From IMG/VR virus record IMGVR_UViG_3300009688_000445: 64,000 nt of DNA; one strand, given 5' to 3'. The position numbers and the translations under genes are program-made. The notes under the pieces are model-generated. The model searched no databases. It was not told where the DNA came from and saw only the letters and a program-made list of their open reading frames with translations. The stretch comes from an uncultured virus (IMG/VR IMGVR_UViG_3300009688_000445) (Duplodnaviria > Heunggongvirae > Uroviricota > Caudoviricetes). Position 1 is the stretch's first letter, and every line of letters begins with the position of its first letter. Below are positions 211 to 63,938 of the stretch, piece by piece.

Positions 211-3020
211 TTACCTACTAACTCCCAAAATGTCCAATTAACCTTACCTACTTCCAAACCACCTGCAATAGAAACATTATGGCCTACTTTTAAATCTCCA
301 TTAATAGTAACATTTTGATTTGCAGAAACACTATTAAAGGTACCTACTATAAGAGACCTGGAAAGATCACCTGCCTCTGAACCTGTATTTTGGTTGTGAA
401 TAAATAACATCTCAGATGCTGTATTATAATATCCTGCATAATATCCCAGAGCTACGTTTCTTTGCGCACTCTGACTACTATAAAGAGAATAAGATCCTAT
501 CGCAGTATTATAATTACCAGTTGTGTGTGAATATAGAGATACATACCCTACAGCAGTATTTAAATCACCCTCATTATGCAATCCTAGTGCACTAGATCCT
601 ATTGCTACATTATATCTATCTGTACTACCATTATATGCTAAGCGTTCTAGGGCATTAGATCCTATTGCTACATTATGCGAACCATATGTGTTGTAATGCA
701 ATGCAGAATTCCCAATTGCAACATTAAATCTGCCTGAATAATTACTACGCATTGCTCGATAACCCAAAGCAATGTTTTGGGTGGCATCACCACCGCAGTT
801 TCTTAAGGCTTCGTCACCCATAGCAATATTATAAGATGCATTCTCACCTAGAGATATTGTAGAAGGACCAATAGCTATATTAGAATCCCCTGAAATGTTT
901 GCACCCAAAGCTTGAAATCCCATTGCAATATTATTGCTTCCAAAGGTGTTTGCCATTAAAGTACCGGCACCTAGACCTATATTTTTGTTACCAAAGGTAT
1001 TAGCCGTTAGAGACGCAGGTCCTATTGCAATATTATGAATGCTAGATATATTAGAAATAAAAGACATTGGCCCAATAAAAATATTACTAAATATACTTGT
1101 GGAAATATCTCCACGGTTTACGTATGCCTCTAAGTTACTTAATAATCCTTCTATTAAAGAAGATTGATAGAATAAATCGCTATTTCCTATAAGAATACAA
1201 GAAAAATCGAATTGAGACCCCCTCGAAATAGAAATTTTAAATCTTGTAATACCGTCTGCTATTTCAGTATCTTTAAAAAGTAATGGTATAAAGATATTGC
1301 TAGCAAAAGTAGTTGTCGGTAGTTTAATAGTAGAACTACCATCTAATGTTCCACTACCTGGTGAAGTTTCATAATGTAACGTTAAATATACTGTATCATC
1401 TACTGCAGGATACATTGTAGTAACTACTGGCCTACAAAGTATCCACACAAAATCATTCTCTTTAGTAAACATATATGCAGTTAAATCTACACTATTTGTA
1501 ACTGTTACATAAGAATATATACCACTACTTGTAATACCTGTACTAGTTATAGTATAACCTGTACTGGATATTGCTCCTGTGGTCGAATCTGTAAAGGATA
1601 TTTTACCATCTGTAGGATATAGAGAAATAGTTGAATAATCTAACTGACGAGTTTCTTTTACTGGTTGTAAATATGTTCTGGCATCAATAACCCTAGCATC
1701 TACTAAGCTGGTTTCTCCTGATTGTAGGTAAAGGATCCATAAAGGAAGAATACCTGTACTTGTTACTCTTAGAACACTAGAAGTTTCTGCAGGATCTCCT
1801 GTTCCTATTTCATATACTAATTCAGAATTATTTACTCCTATTAAATCACATCTATTTCCAGGATAGCTATAATAACAATCTACCGTTTCGTTCATTATAT
1901 TTCCGCCAACGATAGTTGTAACTTCGCCTGTGCTGGTATTTATAGTATAGTCTACACCCTCAATAAAAGCGTTACCGCTTGATTGTTCTATTAAGTGTAC
2001 ATTACTTACAGGTGAATAAGCTAGAGCAAATGTTACTGGTTGTGTATTTCCTACTATGTGTGTTTCTGGATTAGTTCTAGCTGTATAATTACCAATATAA
2101 ACTTGACCTTGTTCAACAATATTAAAATCTGTATTAGAATAGGTTATAACAGTAGCACCATTTACAATTGCTTTTCCCGTCTTAATTCTAATAGCTGTTC
2201 CGCTACTTGTTAATTCATAATCAAATTGTTCATAAACATTAGGTGCTACACCGGATAAATGCAGTTTATTCATATCTGGGTCTGATGCAGATATACCTAT
2301 CTGATAAGTATCCCAATCAGGTGATTGTTTAATATTTCTAATTTCTGTTCTTATTCTATTAAGTTCTTCTTCTAGGTTATCCGCTGTTCCATAAAATTCG
2401 TCGTCTTCTGCCCCTGCAGGTATTTCTGATTCTACTACATCTATAGCAAAATACGTTACAGAACTCAAATCAACAGATAATAATGGATTACCAGATCCTT
2501 GTGCAATAGTAGAACCTAAAAATACTAACTCTGCTTTTTGTGCGGCAGTCAAAGCATTATATTCTGCAACAGTATATACTACAATTTCTAAATCTTCTAT
2601 CTTTCTGTTATAAATAAGTGTTCCGTCATATAAATCTACTGCTTTTTTCTCTCCTTCCACAATAGTTTCTGTTCTTCTATTATATGATCCATATACATAA
2701 GAACACTTAGCATATACATTATTAACAGTTCCATAAGTAGTGTCTGATAATGCAATACTAGAAATATCAGAATTATATTCTATTAAAAGACCACTATTTG
2801 TAATTACTAACCCAGTACCACTATTTTGCGTTACTTCTAAATATAGATTATTGGAAGGATCTACACGTAAAACAAAGTTTTTAATAATAGAAGAAGAAAG
2901 TTCACCAGATACTATACTTTTTAGTATTTTTAATACCTCTGTAGAAACATTATCTTGAAGATACTGGTAATCTTCACTATATAAATCTACTACTCTTCCT
3001 GGGAAGTATAATTGGTTCAT
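1..3020 (-). CDS. Tail fibre / receptor-binding protein (partial, runs off window start); YadA-head-like NIAIG repeats and C-terminal 46-aa propeller-like repeats
   Basis: Not in the ORF track. Manual translation from ATG at 3020 (GGAG 10 nt upstream) is open for 1006 codons: MNQLYFPGRVVDLYSEDYQYLQ..., then ~14-aa repeats (NIAIG/NVAIG/NTAVG), then GNELAISG..APALCSLNGTDVAFV twice. Confidence 0.8.
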   Translation of the reverse strand, partial: MNQLYFPGRVVDLYSEDYQYLQDNVSTEVLKILKSIVSGELSSSIIKNFVLRVDPSNNLYLEVTQNSGTGLVITNSGLLIEYNSDISSIALSDTTYGTVNNVYAKCSYVYGSYNRRTETIVEGEKKAVDLYDGTLIYNRKIEDLEIVVYTVAEYNALTAAQKAELVFLGSTIAQGSGNPLLSVDLSSVTYFAIDVVESEIPAGAEDDEFYGTADNLEEELNRIRTEIRNIKQSPDWDTYQIGISASDPDMNKLHLSGVAPNVYEQFDYELTSSGTAIRIKTGKAIVNGATVITYSNTDFNIVEQGQVYIGNYTARTNPETHIVGNTQPVTFALAYSPVSNVHLIEQSSGNAFIEGVDYTINTSTGEVTTIVGGNIMNETVDCYYSYPGNRCDLIGVNNSELVYEIGTGDPAETSSVLRVTSTGILPLWILYLQSGETSLVDARVIDARTYLQPVKETRQLDYSTISLYPTDGKISFTDSTTGAISSTGYTITSTGITSSGIYSYVTVTNSVDLTAYMFTKENDFVWILCRPVVTTMYPAVDDTVYLTLHYETSPGSGTLDGSSTIKLPTTTFASNIFIPLLFKDTEIADGITRFKISISRGSQFDFSCILIGNSDLFYQSSLIEGLLSNLEAYVNRGDISTSIFSNIFIGPMSFISNISSIHNIAIGPASLTANTFGNKNIGLGAGTLMANTFGSNNIAMGFQALGANISGDSNIAIGPSTISLGENASYNIAMGDEALRNCGGDATQNIALGYRAMRSNYSGRFNVAIGNSALHYNTYGSHNVAIGSNALERLAYNGSTDRYNVAIGSSALGLHNEGDLNTAVGYVSLYSHTTGNYNTAIGSYSLYSSQSAQRNVALGYYAGYYNTASEMLFIHNQNTGSEAGDLSRSLIVGTFNSVSANQNVTINGDLKVGHNVSIAGGLEVGKVNWTFWELVGNELAISGIVVAPALCSLNGTDVAFVDGQNDKLRTYRFNGTTWTTVGNELAISGTIGAPALCSLNGTDVAF

Positions 3021-3052
3021 TAGACAAAATCTCCATATATTCGTATTTTGTT

Positions 3053-3089: not shown

Positions 3090-4016
3090 TTATCTGCGAT
3101 TTCTTTTTGGTATTTCATTAACTGGAACTTTTTTAATGGGTTTAACACAAAATTCTTTAACTGAATCTTCTAACGGCATTCTTAGAATTTCAGTTAAAAT
3201 ACCACCTTCTGTAGAATTTATACATTTTATCTTGTTTTGAAAGATAAGATCTAATAAAGTATTTCTATAAAGAAGTAATAATTTAGTTGTTTTTATATAA
3301 TATGTATCAATATCTATAATTGTATCGTGATTGAGTTCTCTTTTAATAAGAACATCCATTCCAACACCCGTAGTATCATAAAGTTTTCTTTCTAGAAATC
3401 CATTACAATACGGTTTATTATCTGTAAATCCAAAATCATATCCAACAAAAATAACAGAACTAGGATTAAATATTTTAGAAAATAAAAACATTGTAGCACC
3501 TACAAAGTAATTATTTTCTAAATCACCAGCACCGCTCGTATATGTGGTTATTTCAGATAGAACTTTTTGTTTTTCAGATCCAGGTTTATCTGTTTGGTTA
3601 AAAAAGAATACATTACCTTTCCATTCATTTAATGCAATAGAACTTACAGTAGTTGGGCAAATAAAATTACAATTAGAGGTATCCACCCCCTTCCAAAATC
3701 TAGAGAAAGAATCACTAGGATCTATTGTGCAAACAAAATCTGGATGAATTCCTTCTTCCATTAATCTGTATAAAACTACATCTGCACATATAATTAAATA
3801 ATTTTCAGAATACTGTTTTAGTATATGTATATTTTTTTCTAGAGATGGTCCTGCTGCTACTAAAACGCAAGGTATCTTATTATAAAAGGTATTATTAATC
3901 AAAAACTTAAGATATCTAGAATTTGGTCTAGTGAAGACACCTTCTTCTAGATTTCTTTTATAGTTTTCTTTCCACTTTTCAACGATAGGATCAATTATTT
4001 TGGTTTGTTCATTCAT
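3090..4016 (-). CDS. Maf / DUF115 (MAF_flag10, MptE-like) family protein, putative protein glycosyltransferase
   Basis: Motifs CVLVAAGPSLEKNI, IICAD, GIHPDFVCTID, VIFVGYDFGF and CINSTEGG are typical of the DUF115/Maf core. Confidence 0.8.
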   Translation of the reverse strand: MNEQTKIIDPIVEKWKENYKRNLEEGVFTRPNSRYLKFLINNTFYNKIPCVLVAAGPSLEKNIHILKQYSENYLIICADVVLYRLMEEGIHPDFVCTIDPSDSFSRFWKGVDTSNCNFICPTTVSSIALNEWKGNVFFFNQTDKPGSEKQKVLSEITTYTSGAGDLENNYFVGATMFLFSKIFNPSSVIFVGYDFGFTDNKPYCNGFLERKLYDTTGVGMDVLIKRELNHDTIIDIDTYYIKTTKLLLLYRNTLLDLIFQNKIKCINSTEGGILTEILRMPLEDSVKEFCVKPIKKVPVNEIPKRNRR

Positions 4017-4020: not shown

Positions 4021-4899
4021 TCACTTCTTTAAGGTTGATATAAAATCTTCTAATGCTATTTTCCAAGGACGTATCTGAAAACCAAAGGTATTCTCAAAAT
4101 TTCTACTATTTAGATAAGAATTTACTAATCTTTTTGCAGATGTTTTATATTCACTACTAGTAATAGGTTCAATGGTCACAAATCTTTGTAGGGTTCTAGG
4201 TAAAACTTCATAAATCATTATTAATCTATAAACTTCTTTAGCAAATTCAAACCAATCTGTCTTGTTTTTATTACTAAAGTTATACACACCATATCTGGTA
4301 GAATTGGATTCTATAATTTTAAAAATACCTTCTACTAAATCTTTTGTATATGTAGGACTTCCTGTTTCGTCATCAACGATTTGAATTTTTGGTGTTTGTT
4401 TACCTATAAGTTTAAATAGAGTAGATACAAAGGTAATACCATATTTTCCATATAACCAAGAGGATCTTATAATAAAGTACTTTTCTAAAGATTTTTTTAT
4501 AATGTTTTCACCTTCCAGTTTAGATTTTCCATAAATATTAATAGGATCTGGTATATCAAATTCAGAATATTCCGTATCTTTTTTACCATTAAATATTTGA
4601 ACATCTGAAATATGAATAAGTTTGCTATTATACTGTTTCGCTATTTCACATATATTTTTTATCCCTTCTACATTTACTTTGTAAGCTAAAGAAGGATTAT
4701 TCTCTGCTAAATCTGCATTAGAGATACCAGAACAATTAATAATCCAATCTATTTCTTTATTTCTACAAATATTATGTAAATTGTCTAGTATACCTATATC
4801 GCTTTCCTTATCATATGGAACATACGCAATAGAATGTGATCTAAGATACAATTCTAGTTCTGTTCCTAGTAATCCTTTATTTCCTATAAGTAAAATCAT
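4021..4899 (-). CDS. rmlD: dTDP-4-dehydrorhamnose reductase
   Basis: GNKGLLG Rossmann motif, AYKVN, PINIYGKSKLEGE (YxxxK), RSSWLYG, GSPTY. Confidence 0.9.
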   Translation of the reverse strand: MILLIGNKGLLGTELELYLRSHSIAYVPYDKESDIGILDNLHNICRNKEIDWIINCSGISNADLAENNPSLAYKVNVEGIKNICEIAKQYNSKLIHISDVQIFNGKKDTEYSEFDIPDPINIYGKSKLEGENIIKKSLEKYFIIRSSWLYGKYGITFVSTLFKLIGKQTPKIQIVDDETGSPTYTKDLVEGIFKIIESNSTRYGVYNFSNKNKTDWFEFAKEVYRLIMIYEVLPRTLQRFVTIEPITSSEYKTSAKRLVNSYLNSRNFENTFGFQIRPWKIALEDFISTLKK

Positions 4900-5613
4900 T
4901 TATTCACCAGTAATATTAAATTGTTTATTAGAATGTTGCCTATAAAATAAAAGACAAGTATTACATTTTTTTGCATTCCATCCAAAGTTTACTATTCTTT
5001 TATACAAACTATAATCTTCCGGTATATCAGATTTTATATATCCAGAAATATCTTCGAAGCATTTTCTTCTAAAAAGAGAACCTCCATGAATAAAATTTCT
5101 ATTTTGTAGTAATTTTTTAGATTCTTCATTAAATTCAGGAAACATTCTTTTAAAGTATCCTTTTTGTATTTCTCCACCTTTTTCTTCCTGTGGTACATCA
5201 TAGTATCTTGGTGGAGCAAATTGATCGAATAGTATAAAATCTGTATAAACAATACCTATTTCTTGATTATTATCTAATATTCTAGATGTATCTTCTAGAT
5301 AAGTAGTTGATATGTAATCGTCTGCGTCTAAAAAACATAGATAATCGCAAGAAGAATGATTAACAGCAATATTTCTACAGACAATTACACCCTTTCTACT
5401 TGAGTTGTAAGTAACAATAAGATCTATATTAAGATTGTTACCGTAAATATAGTTTTGCAATTCTATATATTTAGAAAAAGAAGAATCGGTGGAATAATCA
5501 TCTATAATAACTATTTCTTTTGGTAATTTACTTTGATTAAGTATAGAATCTAACGCTTCTTTTATATAATTACTATAATTTCTGTTTATTATTAATAAGC
5601 TAATATTACTCAT
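4900..5613 (-). CDS. Glycosyltransferase family 2
   Basis: IVIIDDYSTD, CRNIAV, FLDADD, ED motif. Start moved to the ATG (MSNISLL) overlapping the upstream gene end. Confidence 0.85.
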   Translation of the reverse strand: MSNISLLIINRNYSNYIKEALDSILNQSKLPKEIVIIDDYSTDSSFSKYIELQNYIYGNNLNIDLIVTYNSSRKGVIVCRNIAVNHSSCDYLCFLDADDYISTTYLEDTSRILDNNQEIGIVYTDFILFDQFAPPRYYDVPQEEKGGEIQKGYFKRMFPEFNEESKKLLQNRNFIHGGSLFRRKCFEDISGYIKSDIPEDYSLYKRIVNFGWNAKKCNTCLLFYRQHSNKQFNITGE

Positions 5614-6046
5614 ATCTGAATTCTTTAATATAATCACTACATATTCCTGCACAAGAATATGAATTAATATTAATATCTTTTGGATATCCCTGTATAACTA
5701 TAATTGAATTAGGTGTTAGCTCTTTATTTGGAAATGTCCAAATGTATTTGTTCGAAGTTAATGTACAAGCATCTGTATTATGAAAAAAACAGGTGGTTCT
5801 CAGTACAAGAAGCATATCTAGAGTTTTAGGTGTTTTTGCATGACACCATAAGCCTTTGGTTAATAAAAACTTTTCGTCAATAGTCAGCCAAGGTCCATCG
5901 TGGCCCAGATAAAACTTACCATTTTCATACCATACGTCTATTTCTACAGTATATCCAGAATCTAGTGCTTTCAAAATATAATCTGGGTGATTTTCTTTAT
6001 ACTTATCTGGACCTGTAAGATTACCTCTATGAGCAATAAGTATCAT
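5606..6046 (-). CDS. PLC/glycerophosphodiester phosphodiesterase-like small protein
   Basis: IAHRGN, EN, VEIDVW, LGHD, WCHAK, GICSDY. Confidence 0.7.
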   Translation of the reverse strand: MILIAHRGNLTGPDKYKENHPDYILKALDSGYTVEIDVWYENGKFYLGHDGPWLTIDEKFLLTKGLWCHAKTPKTLDMLLVLRTTCFFHNTDACTLTSNKYIWTFPNKELTPNSIIVIQGYPKDININSYSCAGICSDYIKEFRYE

Positions 6047-6618
6047 TCTTTTGGCCTCAAAATTAAAAATCCTTGATGTCTATAATCTTTAGTTATATTA
6101 TGAGTAGTTTGAAATAAATCATATATAAATTTATTACTTTTTCTATACTTACTTGTAAGGTTATCTGGCATTTTCAATTCGTATAATCCTTCTTCAAACA
6201 ACTGAAGATCATCTATAATAAAAGTATCTTTACAATCTTTTCTATATTTATAAATTAATTCAATTTCTGTTTGTAAGGGTAGCTTAATAGTTTCTTCTAT
6301 TTCGTCATCGTACGATCCTAGTTGAAAATCAGCCCCAGGAAAGTGCGCATCTAACCAAAACAATATCTTATCTTCTTTAGATATAGTAGGCAATATTTTT
6401 TGTAGTCCTTCTAAAGAAGTCATATTTAATAAAGTTAATTTAGTTGAAATATACCTAGTTTTACAATACTCATATAATTCTTTATTAATTTCTATTGAAT
6501 AAAAACTTTTAAAAGGAAACTGTAAAGCATGTTTTAATCCCGTACCTTTACCAGTTCCAGTTTCAATAAAAATATTGCATTTATATTTATCTAAATTATG
6601 AAGGTATAATTCTCCCAT
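6043..6618 (-). CDS. Putative class I SAM-dependent methyltransferase-like protein
   Basis: FIETGTGKG, SIE, FWLDAH, IIDDL. Confidence 0.65.
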   Translation of the reverse strand: MGELYLHNLDKYKCNIFIETGTGKGTGLKHALQFPFKSFYSIEINKELYEYCKTRYISTKLTLLNMTSLEGLQKILPTISKEDKILFWLDAHFPGADFQLGSYDDEIEETIKLPLQTEIELIYKYRKDCKDTFIIDDLQLFEEGLYELKMPDNLTSKYRKSNKFIYDLFQTTHNITKDYRHQGFLILRPKE

Positions 6619-6938
6619 TATTCTGTATACTTATCTCCTATTAAAGATGGAACCTTTACTACTACAACAGCGGCATCTGTAAGTGCTTTAAAATGTGCTT
6701 TTTCGCCCGGTTCTATGATTACAATATCGTCTACCATAAAAGCTTTTCCATTCATTTCTATAGCACCTTCTGTTACTACATTAATTTCAGTAGCTACTCG
6801 ATGAATATGTGGTGTTTCTGTATCACCAGCTTTATATCGTTGAATTGCTACTTCAAAATCTTCGGTTTTCCAAACAGTAGGAGAAAAGTTTCCAATAAAC
6901 CAACCTCGAATCATTTCTTGAATTTTACTAGTTTTCAT
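6618..6938 (-). CDS. Cupin-domain protein
   Basis: GWFIGNF, HxH (PHIH), E, G..IEPGE cupin pattern. Confidence 0.7.
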   Translation of the reverse strand: MKTSKIQEMIRGWFIGNFSPTVWKTEDFEVAIQRYKAGDTETPHIHRVATEINVVTEGAIEMNGKAFMVDDIVIIEPGEKAHFKALTDAAVVVVKVPSLIGDKYTE

Positions 6939-7713
6939 ACAATTTCTTAAACTCCTCTAAATCTTCTGGTGTACCTAATCCATGCATTGCACACGTAGGA
7001 ATAGGAAATGCAAGTATTTTTTGATTTTTTGGTACAATTAATTCATTATACACAGGACAAACATAAAATTCATTATTTACTCTTAAGTTTTTGTTAATCA
7101 TTTCGTCAGCTGCCCAAACAAAGTCTGATCCGTGTTTAAACCAATAAATACCTACAGTAGCATAAGTAGAAATAGGTTCTTTTTCTCTTACTCTAGTAAC
7201 GAATCCTTTATTATCTAATTCTGCATAAGACCATTTAGGATGTGTTCCATGAAAAACGGGGATACATCCATCTGCTTTTGTATCTGCTATTGCTTGCATA
7301 AATAAATATACAGTCCAATCTATAAATTGATCACTATTAGCAATCAGTAAGGATTCATTTGTATTAATAATATCCCTTGCTTTCAATACAGTACAAGCAG
7401 CACCTTCAGTAATATAATTTATTTGTATAATATTTGTTTTATCTGCTATATCTCTACCGCATACTGCTGTAATGGCTTCTTTAATTCTTAGATCAAACTG
7501 AAATTTCTTGCAATGATCTTCTTGAACTATAAAAGTAAAACTAGGCTGGTGAAAATCGTATCCTTTAGTAGTCCATATTGTGGTAAAATCCAAGTTTTTA
7601 ATAACCCATTCGATCATGGGTTTATTTTTAATAGGAATGAAGGGTTTTGGATCTTTATATCCTGCATCTATAAATCGTTGCCCACGTCCCGCCATAGGTA
7701 TAACTATATGCAT
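6928..7713 (-). CDS. Sugar-phosphate nucleotidyltransferase (NTP_transferase family)
   Basis: VIPMAGRGQRF, PKPFI, TEGAACTVL, NSDQ, EK, NNEFY, LGTPEDL. Start at ATG 7713 after a GGAGG RBS. Confidence 0.85.
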   Translation of the reverse strand: MHIVIPMAGRGQRFIDAGYKDPKPFIPIKNKPMIEWVIKNLDFTTIWTTKGYDFHQPSFTFIVQEDHCKKFQFDLRIKEAITAVCGRDIADKTNIIQINYITEGAACTVLKARDIINTNESLLIANSDQFIDWTVYLFMQAIADTKADGCIPVFHGTHPKWSYAELDNKGFVTRVREKEPISTYATVGIYWFKHGSDFVWAADEMINKNLRVNNEFYVCPVYNELIVPKNQKILAFPIPTCAMHGLGTPEDLEEFKKLYEN

Positions 7714-7714
7714 T

Positions 7715-8356
7715 CTACTCCTCCTTAGTACAAAACCATAATTTTCTCTGACCAGATTCCCAAGTACCTGTATTTCTAATAATCCAATCATATTTATGCG
7801 GGCCAGAGTTGCAAGAAGAATCTTCGAGTCTTTCAAATTTAAACTTATGTTCTATTAGAATAGCCTCTATCATACCGACAGAAATTCTACAACCTACGTC
7901 ATGCAGTGATTGATCATAATCTTCTTTTACATCCTTCCAGTATATGATTTTAGAAGGATCGTAACTATCCACTACTTCTGTTTCTAGAATCATATATTTA
8001 CAAAACTTACAAGAAGTGTGTAAAAGATAAATAGGATCTTTTAAATGGTATAACAACCCCATATTTATAATAATGTCTACTGGTTCTATTTCAAATTTTT
8101 CGATGTCTAAATCTTTTTGTAGTGCAGTAATATTTTGATAAGTAGATTGTATATACTCAAGATTATCTTTTCTACCTTCTATACATGTTACAGCTGAACC
8201 TAAGGTAGAAAAATGATATCCAATATCACCAAATCCTGCACCTAATTCTACTAATGTTTTACCTTGGAAAAATTCTTTAGTAAAATATTTCTCAATAGTA
8301 GCTATTCTTTTAGAACGCCATTCTGTATAATGGTCGTCAAATCTGTTTCTGTCCAT
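7715..8356 (-). CDS. Class I SAM-dependent methyltransferase
   Basis: LVELGAGFG, CIEGR, GLLYHL. Confidence 0.8.
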   Translation of the reverse strand: MDRNRFDDHYTEWRSKRIATIEKYFTKEFFQGKTLVELGAGFGDIGYHFSTLGSAVTCIEGRKDNLEYIQSTYQNITALQKDLDIEKFEIEPVDIIINMGLLYHLKDPIYLLHTSCKFCKYMILETEVVDSYDPSKIIYWKDVKEDYDQSLHDVGCRISVGMIEAILIEHKFKFERLEDSSCNSGPHKYDWIIRNTGTWESGQRKLWFCTKEE

Positions 8357-9050
8357 AAATCCATATCCAACAAGGATGATGATCATCTACTGTGTTACTT
8401 AATTCTGTAGTAACATCTTTAAAACCTATATCTAAAAAATCTAGAATAACTTCTTGTCTTGTATCCACTCTACAATCTAGTCTCCCATTAGTAGTAGTAG
8501 CTTCATAAAAATTTTCTGTATAACCAAAGGTAGGTGTTCCATTCATAGATGGGCCAAAAGCAAGTTGAATTGCTATTCTTCCACCAGGTTTTAAACTTTC
8601 TAGCATATTTTCTAGTATTTTTCTTCTAATAGAATAGCAAGGAATATGTTGTAAGCAAATGACAGAATAACAAAAATCATATTTATCTTCTAAAGGAACT
8701 TGTGTCCCATCTGTTACTTTTAAAATTCCATTATATGAAGATCCTATATATTGTTTTGCATTATCCAGATTCTTTTGTGAAATATCAACGCCATCTACCC
8801 GCTTAAATAAATTAAAAATTCTTCTAATCTGTCTTCCTGGTCCACATCCATATTCGTAGCAGATATGCTCTTTAGAAGGTATATAATATTTAAATAGCCA
8901 TTGTTCATATGGAAATTTTTCTTGATTTGGAAAATTTCCTACGATATGATCTTCTAAGCATTTTCCATCTGTATAATAACTTGCTCTAGCATTAGTTTCA
9001 TACCAGTTTTTTTGCATTTGTGTATACTTAAATTCTTCAGATGTTTGCAT
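8337..9050 (-). CDS. Class I SAM-dependent methyltransferase
   Basis: EYGCGPGR, GVDIS, YSVICLQHI, LKPGG. Confidence 0.85.
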   Translation of the reverse strand: MQTSEEFKYTQMQKNWYETNARASYYTDGKCLEDHIVGNFPNQEKFPYEQWLFKYYIPSKEHICYEYGCGPGRQIRRIFNLFKRVDGVDISQKNLDNAKQYIGSSYNGILKVTDGTQVPLEDKYDFCYSVICLQHIPCYSIRRKILENMLESLKPGGRIAIQLAFGPSMNGTPTFGYTENFYEATTTNGRLDCRVDTRQEVILDFLDIGFKDVTTELSNTVDDHHPCWIWIYGQKQI

Positions 9051-10319: not shown

Positions 10320-10328
10320 TACAATACC

Positions 10329-11393: not shown

Positions 11394-11396
11394 TTA

Positions 11397-13909: not shown

Positions 13910-13910
13910 T

Positions 13911-14810: not shown

Positions 14811-14812
14811 AA

Positions 14813-15382: not shown

Positions 15383-15391
15383 TATATTCTC

Positions 15392-17070: not shown

Positions 17071-17072
17071 TA

Positions 17073-17876: not shown

Positions 17877-17904
17877 ATATTTACTCTTGAAAAAAGTTTT
17901 TATA

Positions 17905-54460: not shown

Positions 54461-56221
54461 TTAAATTGCTCGTTTTATACATATAAATTTCTTCATAGAA
54501 GAGATAGTCTCAAATATTATTTCTTTCTTATATGTAGTAGGATTTAAATTTTCATTTGCAATAGCAGCTAAAAGTGACCAATATGCTTTTCCCATTCTCA
54601 GTCTTCCATCTGTACCAAGATGTCCACCATCTGCTCTCATATATGAAGTTTCTGCTATTTCTCTACCATTTCCATCTACTTGCTTAACATTAGAAGTATT
54701 ATAACATTCTATATCAGCAATATCTATTAACCATTTTGCATGATCTAAACAGTAAGTTCTAATTGCAGAATTATATGCTTCTCTAGCAGCATAACTTGCA
54801 TCATCTTGAAGAGGCATTGTCCACCAAACAACAGTTATACTTGGATTTGCTGCTTCAAATGCTTCTATATCCTCAATATCGGATGCAGCCGCTGCTGCAC
54901 CATCAGAAATATAACCAGAAGTTTCAGGCCAAACATCTATCCAGCAATATTTCCACATTGCAATATCAATAGCACCGCGCATATTAGCTGACATCTCAAC
55001 GAATCCACTTATTTTAGTAGCAGGAGTAGGATTTCCACGGTTATTATCCTGTAAACCTGTATGTGTTGAAAACCAAGTGTAATCATTGGCTGATTCTGCA
55101 GAATCTCTATCACAAAGATATCTATTATTTTCTGCATATAACAGAGCTAAACCACAATTTGCAGAATCGTCATAGTTATTACCAGTAGTTGAATTTGTGG
55201 TTGAATCTCCTACAATATCTTGACCAGTAGAAGCATGTTCAAAGTATACTTTCTTTGCTGCAGCTTTTAAAATTTCAGCATTAGTGTAACTTGAAGGATC
55301 ATAATTAGTATGATTTATTGTTCTATATTGATAGGTGGCTGTCCAATCTGCATATAGCGTAGTATTATTTGATATAACAAATGTATCATTAGCATCATAA
55401 TGAGTACCACCTGTTGAGGTTGTTTGCCAACCACCAAAGGTATAATTAGTTTTTGCCAGGCTTCCAGTATTTCCTAATACTGTTACTGTTGCTCCAGATT
55501 CATAAGGTGAATTTGCATCGGTAGGTACTGATCCTGAAGTATTACCATTTCCATTATAAGTAAGTGTACAAGAACTACCACTGCTTGCAGGATATTCTAT
55601 TCCTGAAGTAGAGTAAGATGGAGACGACATATTAACTGCCGTCCAGGTAAGATTACCGGATTCATCTGTCATATCATCTATTAAAGGAGTATATGTTAAA
55701 AGATGATCAGATTGTATATCAAGAGGATTTACGTCACAATTATATAGATCAGCTATTTCATCACTTGATAAAGCAACATCCCACACTGCAACATGCTCTA
55801 TATAATCATCTGCATAGTCGTAAAAAGTAGAAGAACAACTAGCTCCTATTCTTATTTGATCTATACTAATTGATCCTGCTGTCCATGCCCCAGGTGTTTG
55901 TGCTTCGTTATCTAAATAAAAAGTTATGCTATCACTTACAAAAACTACTACACAATGGTACCAATTTGTTGTACCAGGATTACCAGAATGTGTAGAAGTA
56001 TACCCAGATCCACCAGCCCATCCAATAGATCGTATCTGGTCATCTGCAGTTTGTATACATTGATATTGACGTTCTTGATCTACATCTCCTACACCTGCTA
56101 ATGTACACCAATATGCTAAAGATGCACGTCTAACCCACAACGAAATAGTCATAGGTACTCTATTAACACTTAATGCAGAGTATAAATATTGTTCACTAGC
56201 TCTAGTAAATCGTAATGCCAT
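54461..56221 (-). CDS. LamG-like lectin + InlB B-repeat + SGNH-like hydrolase protein
   Basis: TISLWV..WYHCVVV..IEHVAVWDVALS (LamG); LTYNGNG..YTFGGW..TLYADW (B-repeat); YFEHASTG..KYCWID..DIADIE..DGGHL (SGNH-like). Confidence 0.7.
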   Translation of the reverse strand: MALRFTRASEQYLYSALSVNRVPMTISLWVRRASLAYWCTLAGVGDVDQERQYQCIQTADDQIRSIGWAGGSGYTSTHSGNPGTTNWYHCVVVFVSDSITFYLDNEAQTPGAWTAGSISIDQIRIGASCSSTFYDYADDYIEHVAVWDVALSSDEIADLYNCDVNPLDIQSDHLLTYTPLIDDMTDESGNLTWTAVNMSSPSYSTSGIEYPASSGSSCTLTYNGNGNTSGSVPTDANSPYESGATVTVLGNTGSLAKTNYTFGGWQTTSTGGTHYDANDTFVISNNTTLYADWTATYQYRTINHTNYDPSSYTNAEILKAAAKKVYFEHASTGQDIVGDSTTNSTTGNNYDDSANCGLALLYAENNRYLCDRDSAESANDYTWFSTHTGLQDNNRGNPTPATKISGFVEMSANMRGAIDIAMWKYCWIDVWPETSGYISDGAAAAASDIEDIEAFEAANPSITVVWWTMPLQDDASYAAREAYNSAIRTYCLDHAKWLIDIADIECYNTSNVKQVDGNGREIAETSYMRADGGHLGTDGRLRMGKAYWSLLAAIANENLNPTTYKKEIIFETISSMKKFICIKRAI

Positions 56222-57651: not shown

Positions 57652-58575
57652 TTATATCAATCCGCGCTCTAGATGAGCTTTCCATTTATGGTCCTCTGAA
57701 ATTGCGCTTGGAGTTGGTTCTTTATTATCTACTTCGTAGAATTTTTGATTATCAGGTCTTCTAAGAGGATTTTCTCCAGTATTGCTAAACGGACTCTTTT
57801 TGTAATTATAATTAGGCTCTAATTTTCTATAGGAAAATGTATTTATTTCATTATATAAGTCTTTTTGAGTTAATGGTATTAAGTTTCTACCTCTTGTACA
57901 ATAAGAAGGAGATTGAATTAATCCATTTAAAATTACTAAATCTATTCTAAAATCATATCTATAATCATTATTAGGAATGATCATATTTATAGAAACAATA
58001 CCATTCTTAATAGTACCATCTTCATAAGTACTTGAAATTTGAGTAGAAATTAAATTATAATCTGGAACAATATTAATTAAGGGTATAATAATCTTATCAA
58101 GAACATTAGTAGCTATAGGATAGAGTTGTTCTTTATAAGCTCCATCCGTTTCAAACTGTCTTCTTTCTGGAATTTTTCTTTCTTTAAGTTCTTCTAGTTC
58201 TTTTTGAAGAGGTTCCATTTGTTTTAGAACGTCTGTTTTTAATTCCTCTTTAAGAACTTTAAATTTTTCTTCTCTTTCTAGATCTTGTACAACGTCTTTA
58301 AGATCTTGAAGTTCTCTTTCAATTCCATCAGTAATTTTGGCGTCTTCAATAGCTTTGTTAATTTCTTCTCTAAGAAGATCCATATTATCTGTATCTTCTA
58401 TTGGTTCTTCTTTTTTAGAAGCAGCAGGAGATGGAGTTGTTTCATCTTTCTCCATCTCTTTTTTTGTACTATCTTTTATTGAAGGCAGTTTAACAGCTAC
58501 TTTCTTTTTTTGAAGTTCTGGAAACAAAATATCAAAATAATCTGTTTCTTGTTCTTGATGAAGTTTATCTTTCAT
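57652..58575 (-). CDS. Hypothetical protein with coiled-coil N-terminal half
   Basis: 307-aa ORF, TAATG-coupled to the upstream gene. Confidence 0.6.
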   Translation of the reverse strand: MKDKLHQEQETDYFDILFPELQKKKVAVKLPSIKDSTKKEMEKDETTPSPAASKKEEPIEDTDNMDLLREEINKAIEDAKITDGIERELQDLKDVVQDLEREEKFKVLKEELKTDVLKQMEPLQKELEELKERKIPERRQFETDGAYKEQLYPIATNVLDKIIIPLINIVPDYNLISTQISSTYEDGTIKNGIVSINMIIPNNDYRYDFRIDLVILNGLIQSPSYCTRGRNLIPLTQKDLYNEINTFSYRKLEPNYNYKKSPFSNTGENPLRRPDNQKFYEVDNKEPTPSAISEDHKWKAHLERGLI

Positions 58576-59189
58576 TAAGCTTGGCCAGGACGCTCGACAT
58601 CTACTGTGAATTCTTCTTCGCTTGCGCCTTCAGAATAATCATAATAAATTATATCATCAACGCTTAGATCTGAAAAATCACCGCGTAGCATTCTAGTTCT
58701 TGTATATCCTATTGTCTCGTTGAAATAATCTCTTGTATAATCAACACGAACTTCTTGCCCAGCAGTTGGTGCACTAGCAACAGCAAAGTTAAGTACTATC
58801 GTTCCTGTTACTTTATCTAGAATATTTTCTGATGTTAATTCAAATGCAGTTCCATATAATGCAGTACAGTTATTCATATCATAAGAACCAGATGCAGTAT
58901 ATAGTAATCCGTCTGCAGCAATATACCCAGCACCAGTGCTTGTATAAATTTTTCTACCTGTCGATGTGGTTAATGCATACTCTGCATGAGGGGCTTCTGT
59001 TCCAGCTATCTTAATAATAAGAGAATTTTCATTTATAATTGGTTGAAGTGTACCTTCCCATGTTACCGCACCAGTAGATGCTAATTCAGTAGATGCAATT
59101 GTTTGATCTTGAACAAGTGGTGTTTCTTCTACTAAAGCTATTTCGCTGGTTTCTGATATGAATCTAATTACGCCTTTATAAGTTGACAT
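58575..59189 (-). CDS. Putative virion structural/decoration protein
   Basis: AGGAG RBS; TGTIVLNF..AP..G..VRVDY module; two TSTG. Confidence 0.55.
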   Translation of the reverse strand: MSTYKGVIRFISETSEIALVEETPLVQDQTIASTELASTGAVTWEGTLQPIINENSLIIKIAGTEAPHAEYALTTSTGRKIYTSTGAGYIAADGLLYTASGSYDMNNCTALYGTAFELTSENILDKVTGTIVLNFAVASAPTAGQEVRVDYTRDYFNETIGYTRTRMLRGDFSDLSVDDIIYYDYSEGASEEEFTVDVERPGQA

Positions 59190-61517: not shown

Positions 61518-61526
61518 GTTGCACCT

Positions 61527-63938
61527 TTATAATATATACCAATTTCCGGAAGAACCATCTATAACCTGCAAATTTTCATAACTATTCACAGTTTGTGTTA
61601 ATTCATTATCTATAGTTTCAGTTCCATTACCAGCTACTGTAATAACTCCTGTTCCTATGTTTTTAATATGAAATACTTTACCTGTTCCTGTTGCTGCTGG
61701 TAGTGTAGCTGTAAATGTACCATTACACAAAATTACATCATCAGTATTTAATATTGTATAGGTGGTTGTTTGTGTTGTAATATTAAACGATAAATGCCCT
61801 AATGCTGTATATTCTGCTGCTGTTAAATAATAATATTCATCAATTGCCCCACCTTGTAATCCAGGTAAACCATTATGTGGAAATACACTACTTAGAGTAG
61901 TTTCTTGCGCTAATGGCATAATTACTGTCGCGGTACTATCACCTTTTTTAACAATTATTTTTCCGACTAAAACACAAAAATTTTGTATAGCTGGTGGTAA
62001 AGGATCTGGTTCTAGACTTGCTACTGCTTGTTCTAATGTATAATCACCTTGTCCTAAAACTGATACTGGTCGTTGAACAACATTTACTGGATCTGCCGAA
62101 AATCCCCTATAAATCCAGTTAACAGCATATCTATTATTTGTAAGAGTAACTAAATTTGTTCCATTATCGTATTGTGTATTATTATAAGTAGTAGACGTTG
62201 TTCTTGTCCACGTACCGCTACTATGATACCAAAGAGCTATATATTGACCTGCTACATTAGATTGCACTTCTGGTAAATCTAAATATGCTGCTCCATACCA
62301 AATTCTACCCTCAGTTATATTTACTAGTCTAGTTGCAACTTCAGATAGTATTAACCCACCTTTTTCTACAGTAAACTGTTCTGTTTTTACTAATCTATCA
62401 CATAATTTATTAGATAATCCCTTGGCCATTTCATCCCAAAAGATATACAAAATTGTTCCTAATAGATTAAATACACTAAGAACCGGTATTATATCACTTT
62501 GATTTATAGCCTCCATATCATCTATTAATTCTAATTGTGGTGAACCAGAATTATAATTAGCTACTATATAATGATTAATACCATCATCTGGTATTGTAAA
62601 AGTATCACCAGAAATAGTATACTTATTTAAAGTATTTTCTGTATATGTTGAATCTGAATATAATAGATATTCTCCTTGACCGACTGTTATTATCCCTGTG
62701 CTACTACCAACTATAGTTGGTGCTGTGAATACCCCAGAGCTATCATAAAATATATATTCTGGTAATTCTGTTATATGATCAAAAGCAGGGTGTACTACGC
62801 CAGTACTACTATTTTTTCCAATTGCGATTCTTCCAATATAAACACAATGATCTCTTAGTACTAAAGGAGGAGTTGGTGGGAGTTCTTGATAAGTTTCATC
62901 TGTGTTATAATATTGAATCTGTCCTAATGTGTAAAATACCTGTTTAACATCGCCAATGCTTCTATAAAAGAATCTATTAGAAAATCTATTATCTGTCATT
63001 AAAACAGCATTTGTACCGTTATCATAATATTGATTATCGTAAACAGAAACATTAGTATATGTCCAATTTCCTCCAACATGATTAACTTGAGTTAATAAAT
63101 CTGTACTTGAATTAAATGTAGAAACTACATAAGGTGTAGCAGCTGCATATACAATAGATGCACTGACCAAGATTGTTCTAGCTATAGGAGAAGAACTTTC
63201 AGATAAAATTAACCCACCATCGATACTTCTATTATAAGATTGAGTATTATATAACATTCTATTTATTTTATTTGCAAGACCCATTCCATATGCATCTTCA
63301 TCAACAGAATGTATTACTGAGTCTTGCCTCCAACAAATAAGCAATGTTACAATAGAACTTCCATTTATAAGAGCTTTATTTGTTTCTACTCTCATAATTG
63401 GTGAACCAGAATTATAGTCTGCAACTACATATTCTTCCGATCCTTCTGTAAAAGTAAAAGTATCGCCAGCAATAGTATATTTTGCTGCAGGTTCCACAAA
63501 ATCAGTATTATTGAATAATACTACATCTGTAGATGATATAGTTGCTGTACCATCGCCATTATCTGTCAATACCGGGGTTGTTATTGGTCCAGCATTTCTA
63601 TAATGCTAGTGTCCTGTGGAAGTAAAAAAAGTAGAATTATGCCCTTCTAATTGATGTGAATTATCTACAATACCATCGTTGTTGGTATCGTAAATATACT
63701 TAAACATATCACCCGGAGCACCTGTTTCTGCAGTTATAGCAGACCAAGTTATAGGTGAAATTGCAATAAGCATCCACAAAGAATTGTTATCAGTTTGTCG
63801 TGCTAGTTTTCCAATATCAGTAGAATCGAAACTGATATCAGCTTCTCTAGTAGTTCTAGAACTATATTCAAAAGAATATGGTATATGAATACCACAACTA
63901 GTAGTTAGACTTTCATGATAAATGCTTGTAAGTGCCAT
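61527..63938 (-). CDS. Fibre/decoration-like protein with two ~280-aa internal repeats, interrupted by one in-frame TAG at 63606-63608
   Basis: ORFs 63606..63938 and 61527..63569 are in one frame, joined by TAG + 12 sense codons. C-terminus has TLPAATGTG..IKN...ETID fibre-type module. Confidence 0.65.

What the first reader, a model, noticed from the sequence alone, without database searches (positions are those of the whole stretch)
1521..63623. Recurrent TSTG peptide tag on virion proteins: candidate sequon for phage-encoded O-glycosylation
Seen: by manual count TSTG occurs 19 times in 11 structural ORFs, most of them unrelated in sequence: tail fibre (1536, 1752, 1926), wedge (24264), baseplate J (27869, 27911), Pro-rich protein (30711, 30795), sheath (46588), terminator-like (47307, 47325, 47388), 52145, 52790, 54305, 55409, 58932, 58956, 63612. 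There are also about 6 SSTG and 9 TSSG, often clustered (SSTGYTITSTGITSSG; TSTGLESSTG; TSTGYYTSTG; TSTGRKIYTSTG). I found none in the ~7000 aa of glycan enzymes or the two endonucleases. The motif uses all six Ser codons (AGC 1926, AGT 1752, TCC 27911, TCT 30711, TCA 30795, TCG 58956) and all four Gly codons, so it is conserved at protein level and is not a DNA repeat. A rough composition estimate (T, S ~10%, G ~8%, ~8000 aa) expects about one copy. Inference: a shared recognition tag for a modifying enzyme, most simply the glycosyltransferases of the same operon. I know of no described sequon for phage virion glycosylation.
Basis: partly seen in the sequence, partly recalled or inferred. Interest (0 to 1): 0.92.

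Follow-up and report, generated by a model that had tools for sequence, protein, structure and literature searches.

The report
TSTG tag on jumbo-phage virion proteins
The outer virion proteins of this uncultured 236-kb phage and its relatives carry the four-residue motif Thr-Ser-Thr-Gly about twenty times more often than chance, most likely as the attachment signal for a sugar coat made by the phage's own enzymes, although no sugar has yet been measured.

Summary
The motif is encoded by 19 different 12-mers.

It is a clade-wide feature. In nine related phage records TSTG occurs 185 times against 9.05 expected, in 95 of 1577 ORFs, and it is the commonest tetrapeptide in seven of the nine.

Specificity is sharp:
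- TSTG 20x, SSTG and TSSG about 8x.
- TTTG, TSTA and TSTS at or below 1x.

The motif marks outer virion proteins: sheath, baseplate J, wedge, fibres and small head or neck proteins. Portal, capsid, tube and 48,284 aa of non-structural proteins carry none.

A sister clade has no glycan cluster at the same genomic position and has zero TSTG. The only cluster gene with orthologues in all four relatives that show the cluster is a 308-aa stand-alone Maf-type protein O-glycosyltransferase core.

Best reading: a hairpin-tip O-glycosylation sequon. This is inferred; no chemistry has been done. Earlier AI notes from this scan report analogous tags in other phage clades.

The parts
3..3020 (-). Tail-fibre/tailspike-like ORF, 3'-open in the window (1097 aa in G001). 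TSTG at aa 362, 420 and 492 (nt 1926-1937, 1752-1763, 1536-1547). Also SSTG at 485 and TSSG at 271 and 497.
   Evidence: (phrog_4636 tail spike, 1.2e-38).
3090..4016 (-). 308-aa stand-alone Maf-type (PF01973) glycosyltransferase core. It is the candidate reader of the tag, and the last gene of the glycan cluster, next to the fibre gene.
   Evidence: PF01973, 1.5e-33. (NCBIfam PseD flagellin-modification domain, 1.1e-17, profile positions 226-466 of 640). (profile against PDB: Maf 5mu5 1.5e-12, MptE/HPPK 7e-8). (AF2 pLDDT 94.2; Foldseek top hit 5mu5, E 2.4e-9, TMq 0.60; then HPPK and sialyltransferases). (nearest named homologue is a Clostridium estertheticum Maf family glycosyltransferase, 7e-19). 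Orthologues in G003, G004, G005, G006 and G013.
4021..22538 (-). Glycan-synthesis cluster. It encodes RmlD, NTP-transferase, a cupin, two SDR dehydratase/epimerases, two methyltransferases, HAD, radical SAM, an AsnB-like amidotransferase, five GT2 and two GT1 ORFs, plus a 966-aa GT2-GT2-GT4/GT1 protein. It contains no TSTG.
23811..25973 (-). 720-aa baseplate wedge-like protein. TSTG at aa 567 (nt 24264-24275). SSTG at 528 and 573.
   Evidence: 16 TSTG against 0.18 expected over 6 orthologues.
27260..28723 (-). Baseplate J-like protein, 487 aa. TSTG at aa 268 and 282 (nt 27911-27922, 27869-27880). A third hot position at aa 333 reads NSDG here.
   Evidence: Baseplate_J. (TSTG at the three columns in 33, 18 and 22 of 43 orthologues). 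(AF2 pLDDT 87.2; 268-271 is a loop directly after strand 258-267; 272-281 is a low-confidence loop). (Z 15.3 to Mu baseplate 9ki1_H; residues about 256-357 match separate beta-sandwich domains, Z about 8).
30213..30854 (-). 213-aa Pro-rich protein. TSTG at aa 17 and 45 (nt 30795-30806, 30711-30722). TSSG at 7.
44800..47115 (-). Tail sheath, 771 aa. TSTG at aa 173 (nt 46588-46599). TSSG at 51.
47217..48095 (-). 292-aa protein encoded just upstream of the sheath gene. TSTG at aa 233, 254 and 260 (nt 47388-47399, 47325-47336, 47307-47318).
   Evidence: 7 TSTG against 0.06 expected over 9 orthologues.
51926..52585 (-). 219-aa protein with a CarboxypepD_reg-like beta-sandwich. TSTG at aa 144 (nt 52145-52156).
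52589..54379 (-). 596-aa Gly/Ser-rich fibre-like protein. TSTG at aa 22 and 527 (nt 54305-54316, 52790-52801). It also holds a VGSV array and repeated RTLTSSG modules.
54461..56221 (-). 586-aa Laminin_G_3 plus Flg_new (Listeria-Bacteroides repeat) protein. TSTG at aa 268 (nt 55409-55420).
58575..59189 (-). 204-aa protein. TSTG at aa 75 and 83 (nt 58956-58967, 58932-58943).
63606..63938 (-). 110-aa protein. TSTG at aa 106, one residue before the C-terminus (nt 63612-63623).

Best explanation
TSTG, with SSTG and TSSG tolerated, is a recognition tag placed at exposed beta-hairpin tips and strand ends of the outer virion proteins. These are the sheath, baseplate J, the wedge, the fibres and several small head or neck proteins. 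The tag is read in the infected cell's cytoplasm by a phage-encoded enzyme.

The most likely reader is the 308-aa Maf-type protein O-glycosyltransferase core encoded at window 3090-4016. It would put a first sugar on a Thr or Ser of the tag. The other transferases of the adjoining cluster would then extend it, using 6-deoxyhexose-type nucleotide sugars that the cluster makes. The result would be a glycan coat on the tail, the baseplate, the fibres and some head-module proteins.

Shown: the enrichment, its residue specificity, its restriction to certain virion proteins, its co-occurrence with the cluster, and the Maf-like fold.

Inferred: that the tag is modified at all, that the modification is a glycan, which residue accepts it, and which enzyme reads it.

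My odds:
- Something reads the tag: about 0.85.
- The modification is O-glycosylation: about 0.6.
For: 1. Enrichment across the clade. Observed against expected TSTG:
- G001 24/1.6, G002 22/1.5, G003 27/1.34, G004 34/1.37.
- G005 35/1.6, G006 14/0.68, G007 4/0.29, G008 21/0.39.
- G012 4/0.29.
- Pooled: 185 against 9.05 in 361,843 aa, in 95 of 1577 ORFs.
G001 is the window's own phage (99.5% identical). The others share 47-73% sheath identity with it.

2. Residue specificity, pooled.
- TSTG 20.4x, SSTG 7.8x, TSSG 7.7x, SSSG 1.8x.
- TTTG 0.4x, TSTA 0.5x, TSTS 0.7x, TSTN 0.3x, TSDG 0.9x.
- The 11 other orderings occur 2-28 times against 185 for TSTG.

3. Target selectivity over orthologue groups in the nine genomes.
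- Tagged: 309-aa 14/0.11, J 15/0.26, wedge 16/0.18, fibre 10/0.55, 292-aa 7/0.06, 219-aa 7/0.11, 122-aa 4/0.03, sheath 4/0.33.
- Zero: portal, prohead protease, major head protein, tube, tape-measure-like, tube initiator, sheath initiator, and the 1743-, 508- and 412-aa proteins.

4. Natural contrast. G010 (41,880 bp) covers head to J, the 413-aa protein, wedge and fibre.
- It has no glycan gene and no PF01973 hit there.
- It has 0 TSTG in 13,449 aa. G011 has 0 in 15,923 aa and G009 has 0 in 11,956 aa.
- The sites that read TSTG in 5-7 other genomes read TYPE, LDTT, TTLG, TSTS and TSEG in these three.

5. Not a generic virion feature.
- T4 structural 50 kb: 0.
- 35 loci around distant J-like genes: 14 against 7.49 in 221,377 aa.
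- 124 of the 134 J-family representatives examined have no TSTG.

6. Turnover. On a tree of 47 J representatives the state 'two or more TSTG' needs at least 4 changes. Many sites align to other turn sequences such as NSDG, TENG, VISG and GPDG.

7. Structure. In the J model the three hot spots sit at strand ends and loops of residues about 256-357. That stretch matches separate beta-sandwich domains and is additional to the roughly 350-residue J proteins that give the top matches.

8. The enzyme.
- The Maf-like gene is the only cluster gene of G001 with an orthologue in each of G003, G004, G005 and G006.
- In G001, G003, G004 and G006 it is the last cluster gene, next to a wedge or fibre gene. 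In G005 it sits inside the cluster.
- In G005 it is the only recognisable transferase of a six-gene cluster, and G005 has the highest TSTG density.
- Maf enzymes O-glycosylate exposed Ser/Thr of folded flagellin in the cytoplasm, prefer small apolar or Thr/Gly neighbours, and are promiscuous for donor (passages of PMC11339370).
Against: - No chemical evidence of any modification exists.
- The association of cluster and motif rests on a single change on the tree of the 12 records. G009-G011 are fragments (16-20% complete), so their genomes could carry a cluster elsewhere.
- Bacterial Maf enzymes use CMP-nonulosonic acids. No NeuB is found in any of 5 records. A CTP_transf_3 cytidylyltransferase is found in only 2 of 5, and is absent from the complete G003. 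The donor is therefore unknown.
- Sugar pathways differ between relatives while the tag stays the same.
- The enzyme lacks the N- and C-terminal domains of the roughly 640-666-residue Maf proteins it matches.
- 37 phage loci with distant Maf-like genes (21-33% identity) show no TSTG excess: 8 against 6.45. TSTG is therefore not a general Maf sequon.
- Some sites are positionally conserved (33 of 43 J orthologues), as a structural element would be.
- The major capsid protein carries no tag, so the head shell itself would stay bare.
Confidence: 0.58

Rival explanations
1. The tag is read by something other than a glycosyltransferase. Candidates are another phage or host modifying enzyme (a kinase, for example), or a binding partner such as a decoration, cement or assembly protein that docks on TSTG hairpin tips. 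The glycan cluster would then serve another purpose.
For: - The statistics, specificity and target selectivity demand a reader but do not say what it does.
- The PF01973 fold is shared with a pyrophosphokinase: HPPK/MptE is the second-best match.
- G009-G011 also lack orthologues of several small TSTG-bearing proteins (the 122-, 204- and 213-aa proteins). More than the glycan cluster therefore differs between the clades.
Against: - The only gene block found to co-vary with the tag at a fixed genomic position is a sugar-synthesis and transferase cluster.
- Its one universal gene is closer to Maf glycosyltransferases and sialyltransferases than to the kinase.
- A Thr/Ser-rich tetrapeptide is what an O-linked modification needs.
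Confidence: 0.22
2. TSTG is a lineage-specific structural building block. It would be a favoured four-residue hairpin turn, carry no modification, and have spread by drift or selection for folding or stability of beta-rich virion proteins.
For: - The sites sit at strand ends and turns, and flanks are mildly enriched in I, L, V, F and Y.
- Aligned alternatives are other Gly-ending turns.
- Some sites are kept in most orthologues.
Against: - A turn preference should tolerate TTTG, TSDG, TSNG and TSTN. These are at or below about 1x, against 20x for TSTG.
- The same folds in the sister clade, in T4 and in 35 other myophage baseplate loci do without it.
- Beta-rich inner proteins of the same phages (tube, portal, capsid) have none.
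- 48,284 aa of non-virion proteins have none.
Confidence: 0.15
3. The signal is an artefact: chance, amino-acid composition, local low complexity, a DNA repeat, or shared ancestry of the carrier proteins.
For: - A few sites lie in repeated modules or occur as close pairs.
- S/T/G-rich proteins raise the local expectation.
Against: - No shuffle reached more than 6 sites, against 19 observed, even with 8-residue blocks.
- 19 different 12-mers encode the 19 sites.
- 95 ORFs of many unrelated families carry the motif in nine genomes.
Confidence: 0.01

Closest known systems
Maf (motility accessory factor) flagellin O-glycosyltransferases, for example Clostridium botulinum CbMaf and Magnetospirillum Maf (PDB 5mu5)
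   Same: - PF01973 catalytic core. The best sequence-profile and fold match is 5mu5.
- NCBIfam PseD domain match.
- These are cytoplasmic enzymes that O-glycosylate exposed Ser/Thr of a folded structural protein destined for an extracellular assembly.
- They prefer small apolar or Thr/Gly neighbours (passages of PMC11339370).
   Different: - 308 aa, against about 640-666 residues for the PseD profile and 5mu5. Only the core is present.
- The presumed acceptors are a dozen unrelated virion proteins, not flagellin.
- No sequon is known for Maf enzymes (PMC11339370), whereas here the tag is a strict tetrapeptide.
- No nonulosonic-acid synthase is present in the phages.
- Activity is untested.
Virion glycosylation of mycobacteriophages by phage-encoded glycosyltransferases (Freeman et al. 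2023). I saw this only as cited in PMC12619734; the paper itself is not held.
   Same: The phage encodes its own glycosyltransferases, and virion proteins are the proposed targets.
   Different: - There, glycans sit on the C-termini of capsid and tail-tube subunits (as cited).
- Here the capsid and tube orthologues carry no tag, and the tag is an internal tetrapeptide on sheath, baseplate and fibre proteins.
- There the glycans were observed. Here nothing has been measured.
Sequon-directed bacterial protein glycosylation: PglB D/E-X-N-X-S/T and PglL WPAAASAP (quoted in PMC11339370); Bacteroidetes D-(S/T)-(A/I/L/V/M/T) (recalled, from no call)
   Same: A short linear motif marks the sites, and it is enriched in the target proteins.
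   Different: - Those systems transfer preassembled glycans in the periplasm from lipid carriers.
- Phage virion proteins stay in the cytoplasm.
- TSTG matches none of these sequons.
Chlorovirus PBCV-1 capsid protein glycosylation by virus-encoded enzymes at atypical sequons (recalled, from no call)
   Same: The virus encodes its own glycosylation machinery and uses its own, non-host site rules.
   Different: - That is a eukaryotic virus with N-linked glycans on the major capsid protein.
- Here it is a phage, O-linkage is presumed, and the capsid protein is untagged.

Membership tests
Maf-type protein O-glycosylation (PF01973 / MAF_flag10) | PF01973 catalytic domain present | tested here: met
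   E 1.5e-33, 116.5 bits against a cut-off of 34.6, covering 18-170 of 171 profile positions.
Maf-type protein O-glycosylation (PF01973 / MAF_flag10) | Closer to Maf glycosyltransferases than to the MptE pterin pyrophosphokinases that share the Pfam family | tested here: met
   - NCBIfam: the only hit is the PseD flagellin-modification domain, 1.1e-17.
- Profile against PDB: 5mu5 1.5e-12 against HPPK 7e-8.
- Foldseek: 5mu5 E 2.4e-9, TMq 0.60, against HPPK 1.7e-5, TMq 0.44. Sialyltransferases follow.
Maf-type protein O-glycosylation (PF01973 / MAF_flag10) | Full Maf architecture, with N- and C-terminal domains flanking the core (about 640-666 residues) | tested here: not met
   The protein is 308 aa. 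It matches only positions 226-466 of the 640-position PseD profile and aligns over 290 columns of the 632-residue 5mu5 chain (TMt 0.30). All 56 homologues at E of 1e-40 or better are 255-378 aa.
Maf-type protein O-glycosylation (PF01973 / MAF_flag10) | A CMP-nonulosonic acid donor pathway is available | tested here: inconclusive
   NeuB is found in 0 of 5 records. CTP_transf_3 is found in 2 of 5, namely G001 and G004, and not in the complete G003. The host could supply the donor.
Maf-type protein O-glycosylation (PF01973 / MAF_flag10) | Transfers a sugar to Ser/Thr of its acceptor | not testable with these tools
   This needs co-expression and mass spectrometry.
Phage virion glycosylation (mycobacteriophage type) | Phage-encoded glycosyltransferases beside the structural genes | tested here: met
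   An approximately 19-kb cluster lies between the wedge paralogue and the fibre gene. Syntenic clusters occur in G003-G006.
Phage virion glycosylation (mycobacteriophage type) | Glycans on the C-termini of capsid and tail-tube subunits | tested here: not met
   The candidate tag is absent from major head protein orthologues (0 in 2340 aa, 6 genomes) and from tube orthologues (0 in 1983 aa, 9 genomes).
Phage virion glycosylation (mycobacteriophage type) | Glycan demonstrated on virions | not testable with these tools
   The phage is uncultured and known only from contigs.
Sequon (a short linear motif that marks modification sites) | Motif over-represented in the targets, position-specific in its residues, and absent from non-targets | tested here: met
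Sequon (a short linear motif that marks modification sites) | Motif presence tracks presence of the modifying enzyme across genomes | tested here: inconclusive
   - Five records show both (G001, G003-G006). G013 also has the gene, but I did not count its motifs.
- One clade shows neither at the syntenic place (G010).
- This amounts to a single change on the tree.
- At least 4 further state changes on the J tree could not be checked for the enzyme.

The most novel reading that the evidence does not exclude
A stripped-down 300-residue Maf-type enzyme reads a strict four-residue hairpin-tip sequon, T-S-T-G. It starts O-glycans on a dozen unrelated outer virion proteins of a clade of jumbo phages. 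If true, this would be the first defined sequon for the Maf family and the first proteome-wide 'glyco-code' of a phage particle. Enzyme and tag together might be portable as a cytoplasmic glyco-tagging tool.
Probability: 0.35. Interest if true: 0.9.

Novelty: new variant of a known kind. Interest (0 to 1): 0.8.

Why it matters
Phage virion glycosylation has been seen in mycobacteriophages, where it was cited as shielding particles from anti-phage responses (passage of PMC12619734). No site rule is in print for any phage.

For Maf-type flagellin glycosyltransferases the lack of a sequon is stated as the obstacle to glyco-engineering (PMC11339370). A strict tetrapeptide paired with a minimal enzyme would make both questions directly testable with a two-gene co-expression.

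It would also let glycosylated virion surfaces be predicted from sequence alone in uncultured jumbo phages.

Earlier AI notes of this scan report analogous tags in other phage clades: S-T-A/G with a Maf-like enzyme, [S/T]-G-x-T, and DGST. This suggests a wider phenomenon in which each clade has its own code.

Tried and rejected
- **Whole genome.** No whole genome of the window is held. I used the 99.5%-identical record G001 instead.
- **DNA-level repeat.** Rejected: 19 different 12-mers. AGY Ser codons are somewhat over-used at position 2 (11 of 19, against 35% in the same genes). I did not pursue this.
- **Generic Maf sequon.** Rejected: 37 loci with distant Maf-like genes have 8 TSTG against 6.45 expected.
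- **Generic virion turn.** Rejected by T4, by 35 distant J loci and by 124 of 134 J representatives without TSTG.
- **Flank logo.** It showed only mild hydrophobic preferences. The W at position -8 comes from one repeated module. The tag is essentially the tetrapeptide itself.
- **Context of distant TSTG-bearing J lineages** (P0134, P0138, P0144) **and of TSTG-free close lineages** (P0125 and others). Scans found nothing. The alignment was too divergent to search with. Cluster look-up gave only contig lengths. The J orthologue of the G010-type clade lies on 65-67-kb contigs, and no Maf-like homologue lists such a contig length. That is a weak hint, not a test.
- **Complex prediction** of the Maf-like enzyme with a TSTG-bearing fragment. 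There is no result either way.
- **ESM Atlas look-up of the 309-aa protein.** No usable annotation.
- **Freeman et al. 2023.** The paper is not held.
- **G002.** It lacks PF01973, but its contig ends at the wedge gene. This is consistent with one contig carrying all three, but it is not shown.

Full report
**1. What the window is**

All long ORFs lie on the minus strand and G+C is about 30%. Read in the direction of transcription, from window 64000 down to 1, the window encodes:
- fibre-like and lectin-like proteins;
- a 292-aa protein, then the tail sheath (44800-47115);
- a homing endonuclease, the tube, a tape-measure-like protein, a tube initiator, and 1743-aa and 508-aa proteins;
- a sheath initiator and baseplate J (27260-28723);
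- a 412-aa protein, a 720-aa wedge-like protein, and a paralogue of the 412-aa protein;
- a cluster of about 19 kb of sugar-nucleotide and glycosyltransferase genes (4021-22538);
- a 308-aa PF01973 protein (3090-4016) and a tail fibre (3-3020).

The window is 99.5% identical to positions 170947-236095 of record G001. G001 is a 236,368-bp phage genome with direct terminal repeats, rated complete.

**2.

I counted 57 minus-strand ORFs of at least 80 aa (20,550 aa). The 9 antisense plus-strand ORFs were left out.
SSTG occurs 6 times and TSSG 9 times.
- The composition expectation is 0.89.
- 2000 within-protein shuffles give a mean of 0.866 and a maximum of 5.
- Shuffles inside 8-, 12- or 20-residue blocks give means of 1.26, 1.19 and 1.01, with maxima of 6, 5 and 5.
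- The other 11 orderings of the four letters occur 0-2 times each.
- The 19 sites use 19 different 12-mers, all six Ser codons and all four Gly codons.

The signal is therefore at the protein level and is not a repeat.

**3. It is specific to the virion module**

| Part of G001 | aa | TSTG observed | expected |
|---|---|---|---|
| 299 ORFs upstream of position 159,176 | 48,284 | 0 | 0.45 |
| 21 glycan-cluster ORFs | 6,345 | 0 | 0.06 |
| 50 remaining ORFs of the structural module | 18,440 | 24 | 1.10 |

**4. It is a clade feature**

Relatives were found through the sheath. I fetched them whole or as far as each record goes.

| Record | TSTG observed / expected |
|---|---|
| G002 | 22 / 1.5 |
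| G003 | 27 / 1.34 |
| G004 | 34 / 1.37 |
| G005 | 35 / 1.6 |
| G006 | 14 / 0.68 |
| G007 | 4 / 0.29 |
| G008 | 21 / 0.39 |
| G012 | 4 / 0.29 |

TSTG is the commonest tetrapeptide of the whole predicted proteome in G002, G003, G004, G005, G006 and G008, and the second commonest in G001. Pooled with G001 the count is 185 against 9.05 expected, in 95 of 1577 ORFs.

**5. The specificity is that of a recognition site**

Pooled observed-to-expected ratios:
- TSTG 20.4x, SSTG 7.8x, TSSG 7.7x, SSSG 1.8x.
- TTTG 0.4x, STTG 1.0x, TATG 2.6x, TSTA 0.5x, TSTS 0.7x, TSTN 0.3x, TSDG 0.9x, ASTG 1.0x.

Position 2 must be Ser and position 4 must be Gly. Positions 1 and 3 prefer Thr and tolerate Ser one at a time. 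Flanks show only a mild preference for I, L, V, F and Y.

**6. Which proteins carry it**

Over orthologue groups in the nine genomes:
- Tagged: the 122-aa protein after the portal (4/0.03), the 309-aa head-module protein (14/0.11), the 219-aa beta-sandwich protein (7/0.11), the 292-aa protein (7/0.06), sheath (4/0.33), J (15/0.26), wedge (16/0.18) and fibre (10/0.55).
- Zero: portal, prohead protease, major head protein, tube, tape-measure-like protein, tube and sheath initiators, and the 1743-, 508- and 412-aa proteins.

The pattern is outer and peripheral against inner and core, except that the capsid shell protein itself is untagged.

**7. Where it sits in a fold**

The AF2 model of J was built from 43 sequences and has a pLDDT of 87.2.
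- TSTG 268-271 is a loop immediately after strand 258-267.
- A low-confidence loop follows at 272-281.
- TSTG 282-285 lies at the start of the next strand.
- The third hot position (333) lies between a strand and a helix.

All three lie in residues about 256-357. That stretch aligns on its own to beta-sandwich domains of other phage neck and tailspike proteins (Z about 8). It is additional to the roughly 350-residue J proteins of Mu and diffocin, which match the whole model (Z 14-15). Exposure on the assembled baseplate is inferred, not shown.

Among 43 J orthologues the three columns read TSTG in 33, 18 and 22 sequences. The rest show many unrelated tetrapeptides.

**8. A natural contrast**

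Records G009, G010 and G011 form one well-supported branch of the tree of 12 records, built from seven concatenated virion proteins. They have 0 TSTG in 11,956, 13,449 and 15,923 aa.

G010 covers head genes, tail, J, the 413-aa protein, the wedge orthologue and a fibre, in that order.
- There is nothing between these genes.
- No PF01973 is present.
- None of the 13 ORFs scanned around them matches a sugar or transferase family.

Where G001-G008 read TSTG, these records read TYPE, LDTT or EDST, TTLG, TSTS and TSEG.

Every relative whose record covers the place has a glycan cluster:
- in G003, G004, G005 and G006 it lies between the 412-aa gene and the wedge gene;
- in G001 it lies between the wedge paralogue and the fibre.

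This is one evolutionary contrast, and G009-G011 are fragments.

**9. Not a general property of such proteins**

- T4's 50-kb structural region has 0 TSTG against 0.47 expected.
- 35 loci around distant J-like genes of other large phages have 14 against 7.49 in 221,377 aa, and none has a Maf-like gene in reach.
- Of the 151 J sequences held after the representative search (its 150 best rows plus the window's own protein), I kept the 134 that are 430-560 aa long. Of these, 124 have no TSTG, 5 have one, and 5 have two or three.
- On a tree of 47 of them, the five with two or more sites need at least 4 changes of state. All five lie in one 18-row clade. Three of them, only about 30% identical to the window's J, carry TSTG at two positions close to the window's hot positions 268 and 333.

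I could not recover the genomes of these lineages.

**10. The candidate reader**

The clusters differ greatly in content.

| Record | Cluster content |
|---|---|
| G001, G004 | About 20 genes. Both have an NTP-transferase, SDR dehydratase/epimerases, methyltransferases, HAD, radical SAM, and several GT2 and GT1. RmlD and an AsnB-like amidotransferase were found in the window's cluster only. |
| G006 | 15 ORFs, 12 of them scanned: GT2 and GT1 proteins, an RmlC-like epimerase, a TylF-like methyltransferase, an aminotransferase, an acetyltransferase, AsnB-like, RmlD-like, the Maf-like gene |
| G003 | Eight genes: an SDR dehydratase/epimerase, a TylF-like methyltransferase, a GT2-GT9 fusion, a deaminase-like protein, a methyltransferase, two unknowns, the Maf-like gene |
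| G005 | Six genes: an RmlC-like epimerase, a hexapeptide acyltransferase, a DegT aminotransferase, two unknowns, the Maf-like gene |

The PF01973 gene is the only G001 cluster gene with an orthologue (43-46% identity) in all four others. In G001, G003, G004 and G006 it is the last cluster gene; in G005 it sits inside the cluster.

Evidence on what the protein is:
- It matches the core of the PseD flagellin-modification model (1.1e-17).
- Its profile hits Maf 5mu5 (1.5e-12) ahead of MptE/HPPK (7e-8).
- Its AF2 model (pLDDT 94.2) is closest to 5mu5 (E 2.4e-9, TMq 0.60), then HPPK, then CMP-sialic-acid transferases.
- Its nearest named homologue is a Clostridium estertheticum Maf family glycosyltransferase.

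Passages of PMC11339370 state the following:
- Maf enzymes O-glycosylate surface Ser/Thr of flagellin.
- CbMaf accepts several donor sugars.
- CbMaf needs structural context around the site.
- The residues next to the glycosites are mostly small apolar or Thr/Gly.
- No sequon is known for the family.

**11. Open points on the chemistry**

- No NeuB-type synthase is present in 5 records.
- A CTP_transf_3 cytidylyltransferase is present in G001 (74906-75607) and G004, but not in the complete G003.
- The donor of the first sugar is therefore unknown. A host-made CMP sugar and a dTDP-6-deoxyhexose derivative are both possible.
- Which residue of the tag accepts the sugar is also unknown. Positions 1 and 3 tolerate Ser-for-Thr exchange and position 2 does not. 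This would fit acceptors at positions 1 or 3, but that is speculation.

**12. Verdict**

The reading as a tag for a modifying enzyme is well supported. The reading as an O-glycosylation sequon read by the phage's Maf-like enzyme is the best available explanation, but it is unproven.

No paper found in three searches describes such a sequon for a phage.

Earlier AI notes of this scan describe similar tags in other phage clades, one of them with a Maf-like enzyme. They are leads, not evidence. Here the Ala-ending variant TSTA is not enriched (0.5x).

Noticed in passing
window 42809-44635 and 49683-51107: Two homing-endonuclease ORFs sit inside the tail module. One is 608 aa (DUF7487, phrog_3339, 4.5e-104) and lies between sheath and tube. 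The other is a 474-aa HNH protein.
   Followed up: no
window 52589-54379: This 596-aa Gly/Ser-rich protein holds a long (V/A)GSV / GNVSGS array (VGSV 17 times) and repeated W-x-Y-x-x-R-T-L-T-S-S-G modules. The G001 orthologue is 977 aa, and the nucleotide alignment breaks at window 53208-53402, so the array length varies between near-identical phages.
   Followed up: partly
window 22535-23776 and 25983-27221: Two paralogous 412/413-aa proteins of no known family flank the wedge gene. Relatives have one copy, and in them the glycan cluster follows it directly.
   Followed up: partly
window 51440-51913: An NT5C-type 5'-deoxyribonucleotidase gene lies inside the structural module.
   Followed up: no
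window 1-219: This stretch matches both ends of G001, in line with the direct terminal repeats IMG/VR reports for that record; the window starts close to one genome end.
   Followed up: no
L096:3629-5707 (G004): The radical-SAM gene of the G004 glycan cluster is 693 aa, against 319 aa in the window. It carries an intein with a LAGLIDADG domain. A free-standing LAGLIDADG ORF lies in the same cluster.
   Followed up: no
L062:17961-19217 (G001 77961-79217): A TnpB / OrfB_IS605-type ORF of 419 aa lies in the phage genome.
   Followed up: no
L062:14906-15607 (G001) and L099:2591-3304 (G004): A CTP_transf_3 cytidylyltransferase (the CMP-sugar synthetase family) is encoded away from the glycan cluster. 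In G004 it lies beside head genes. It is absent from the complete G003.
   Followed up: partly
window 44800-47115: The sheath is 771 aa here and in G002, G009, G010 and G011, but 453-468 aa in G003-G008 and G012. The extra part is an insertion that looks internally duplicated, and it holds the TSTG site.
   Followed up: no
TSTG sites of the window: Ser at position 2 uses AGY codons in 11 of 19 sites, against 35% AGY among Ser codons of the same genes. This is unexplained.
   Followed up: no
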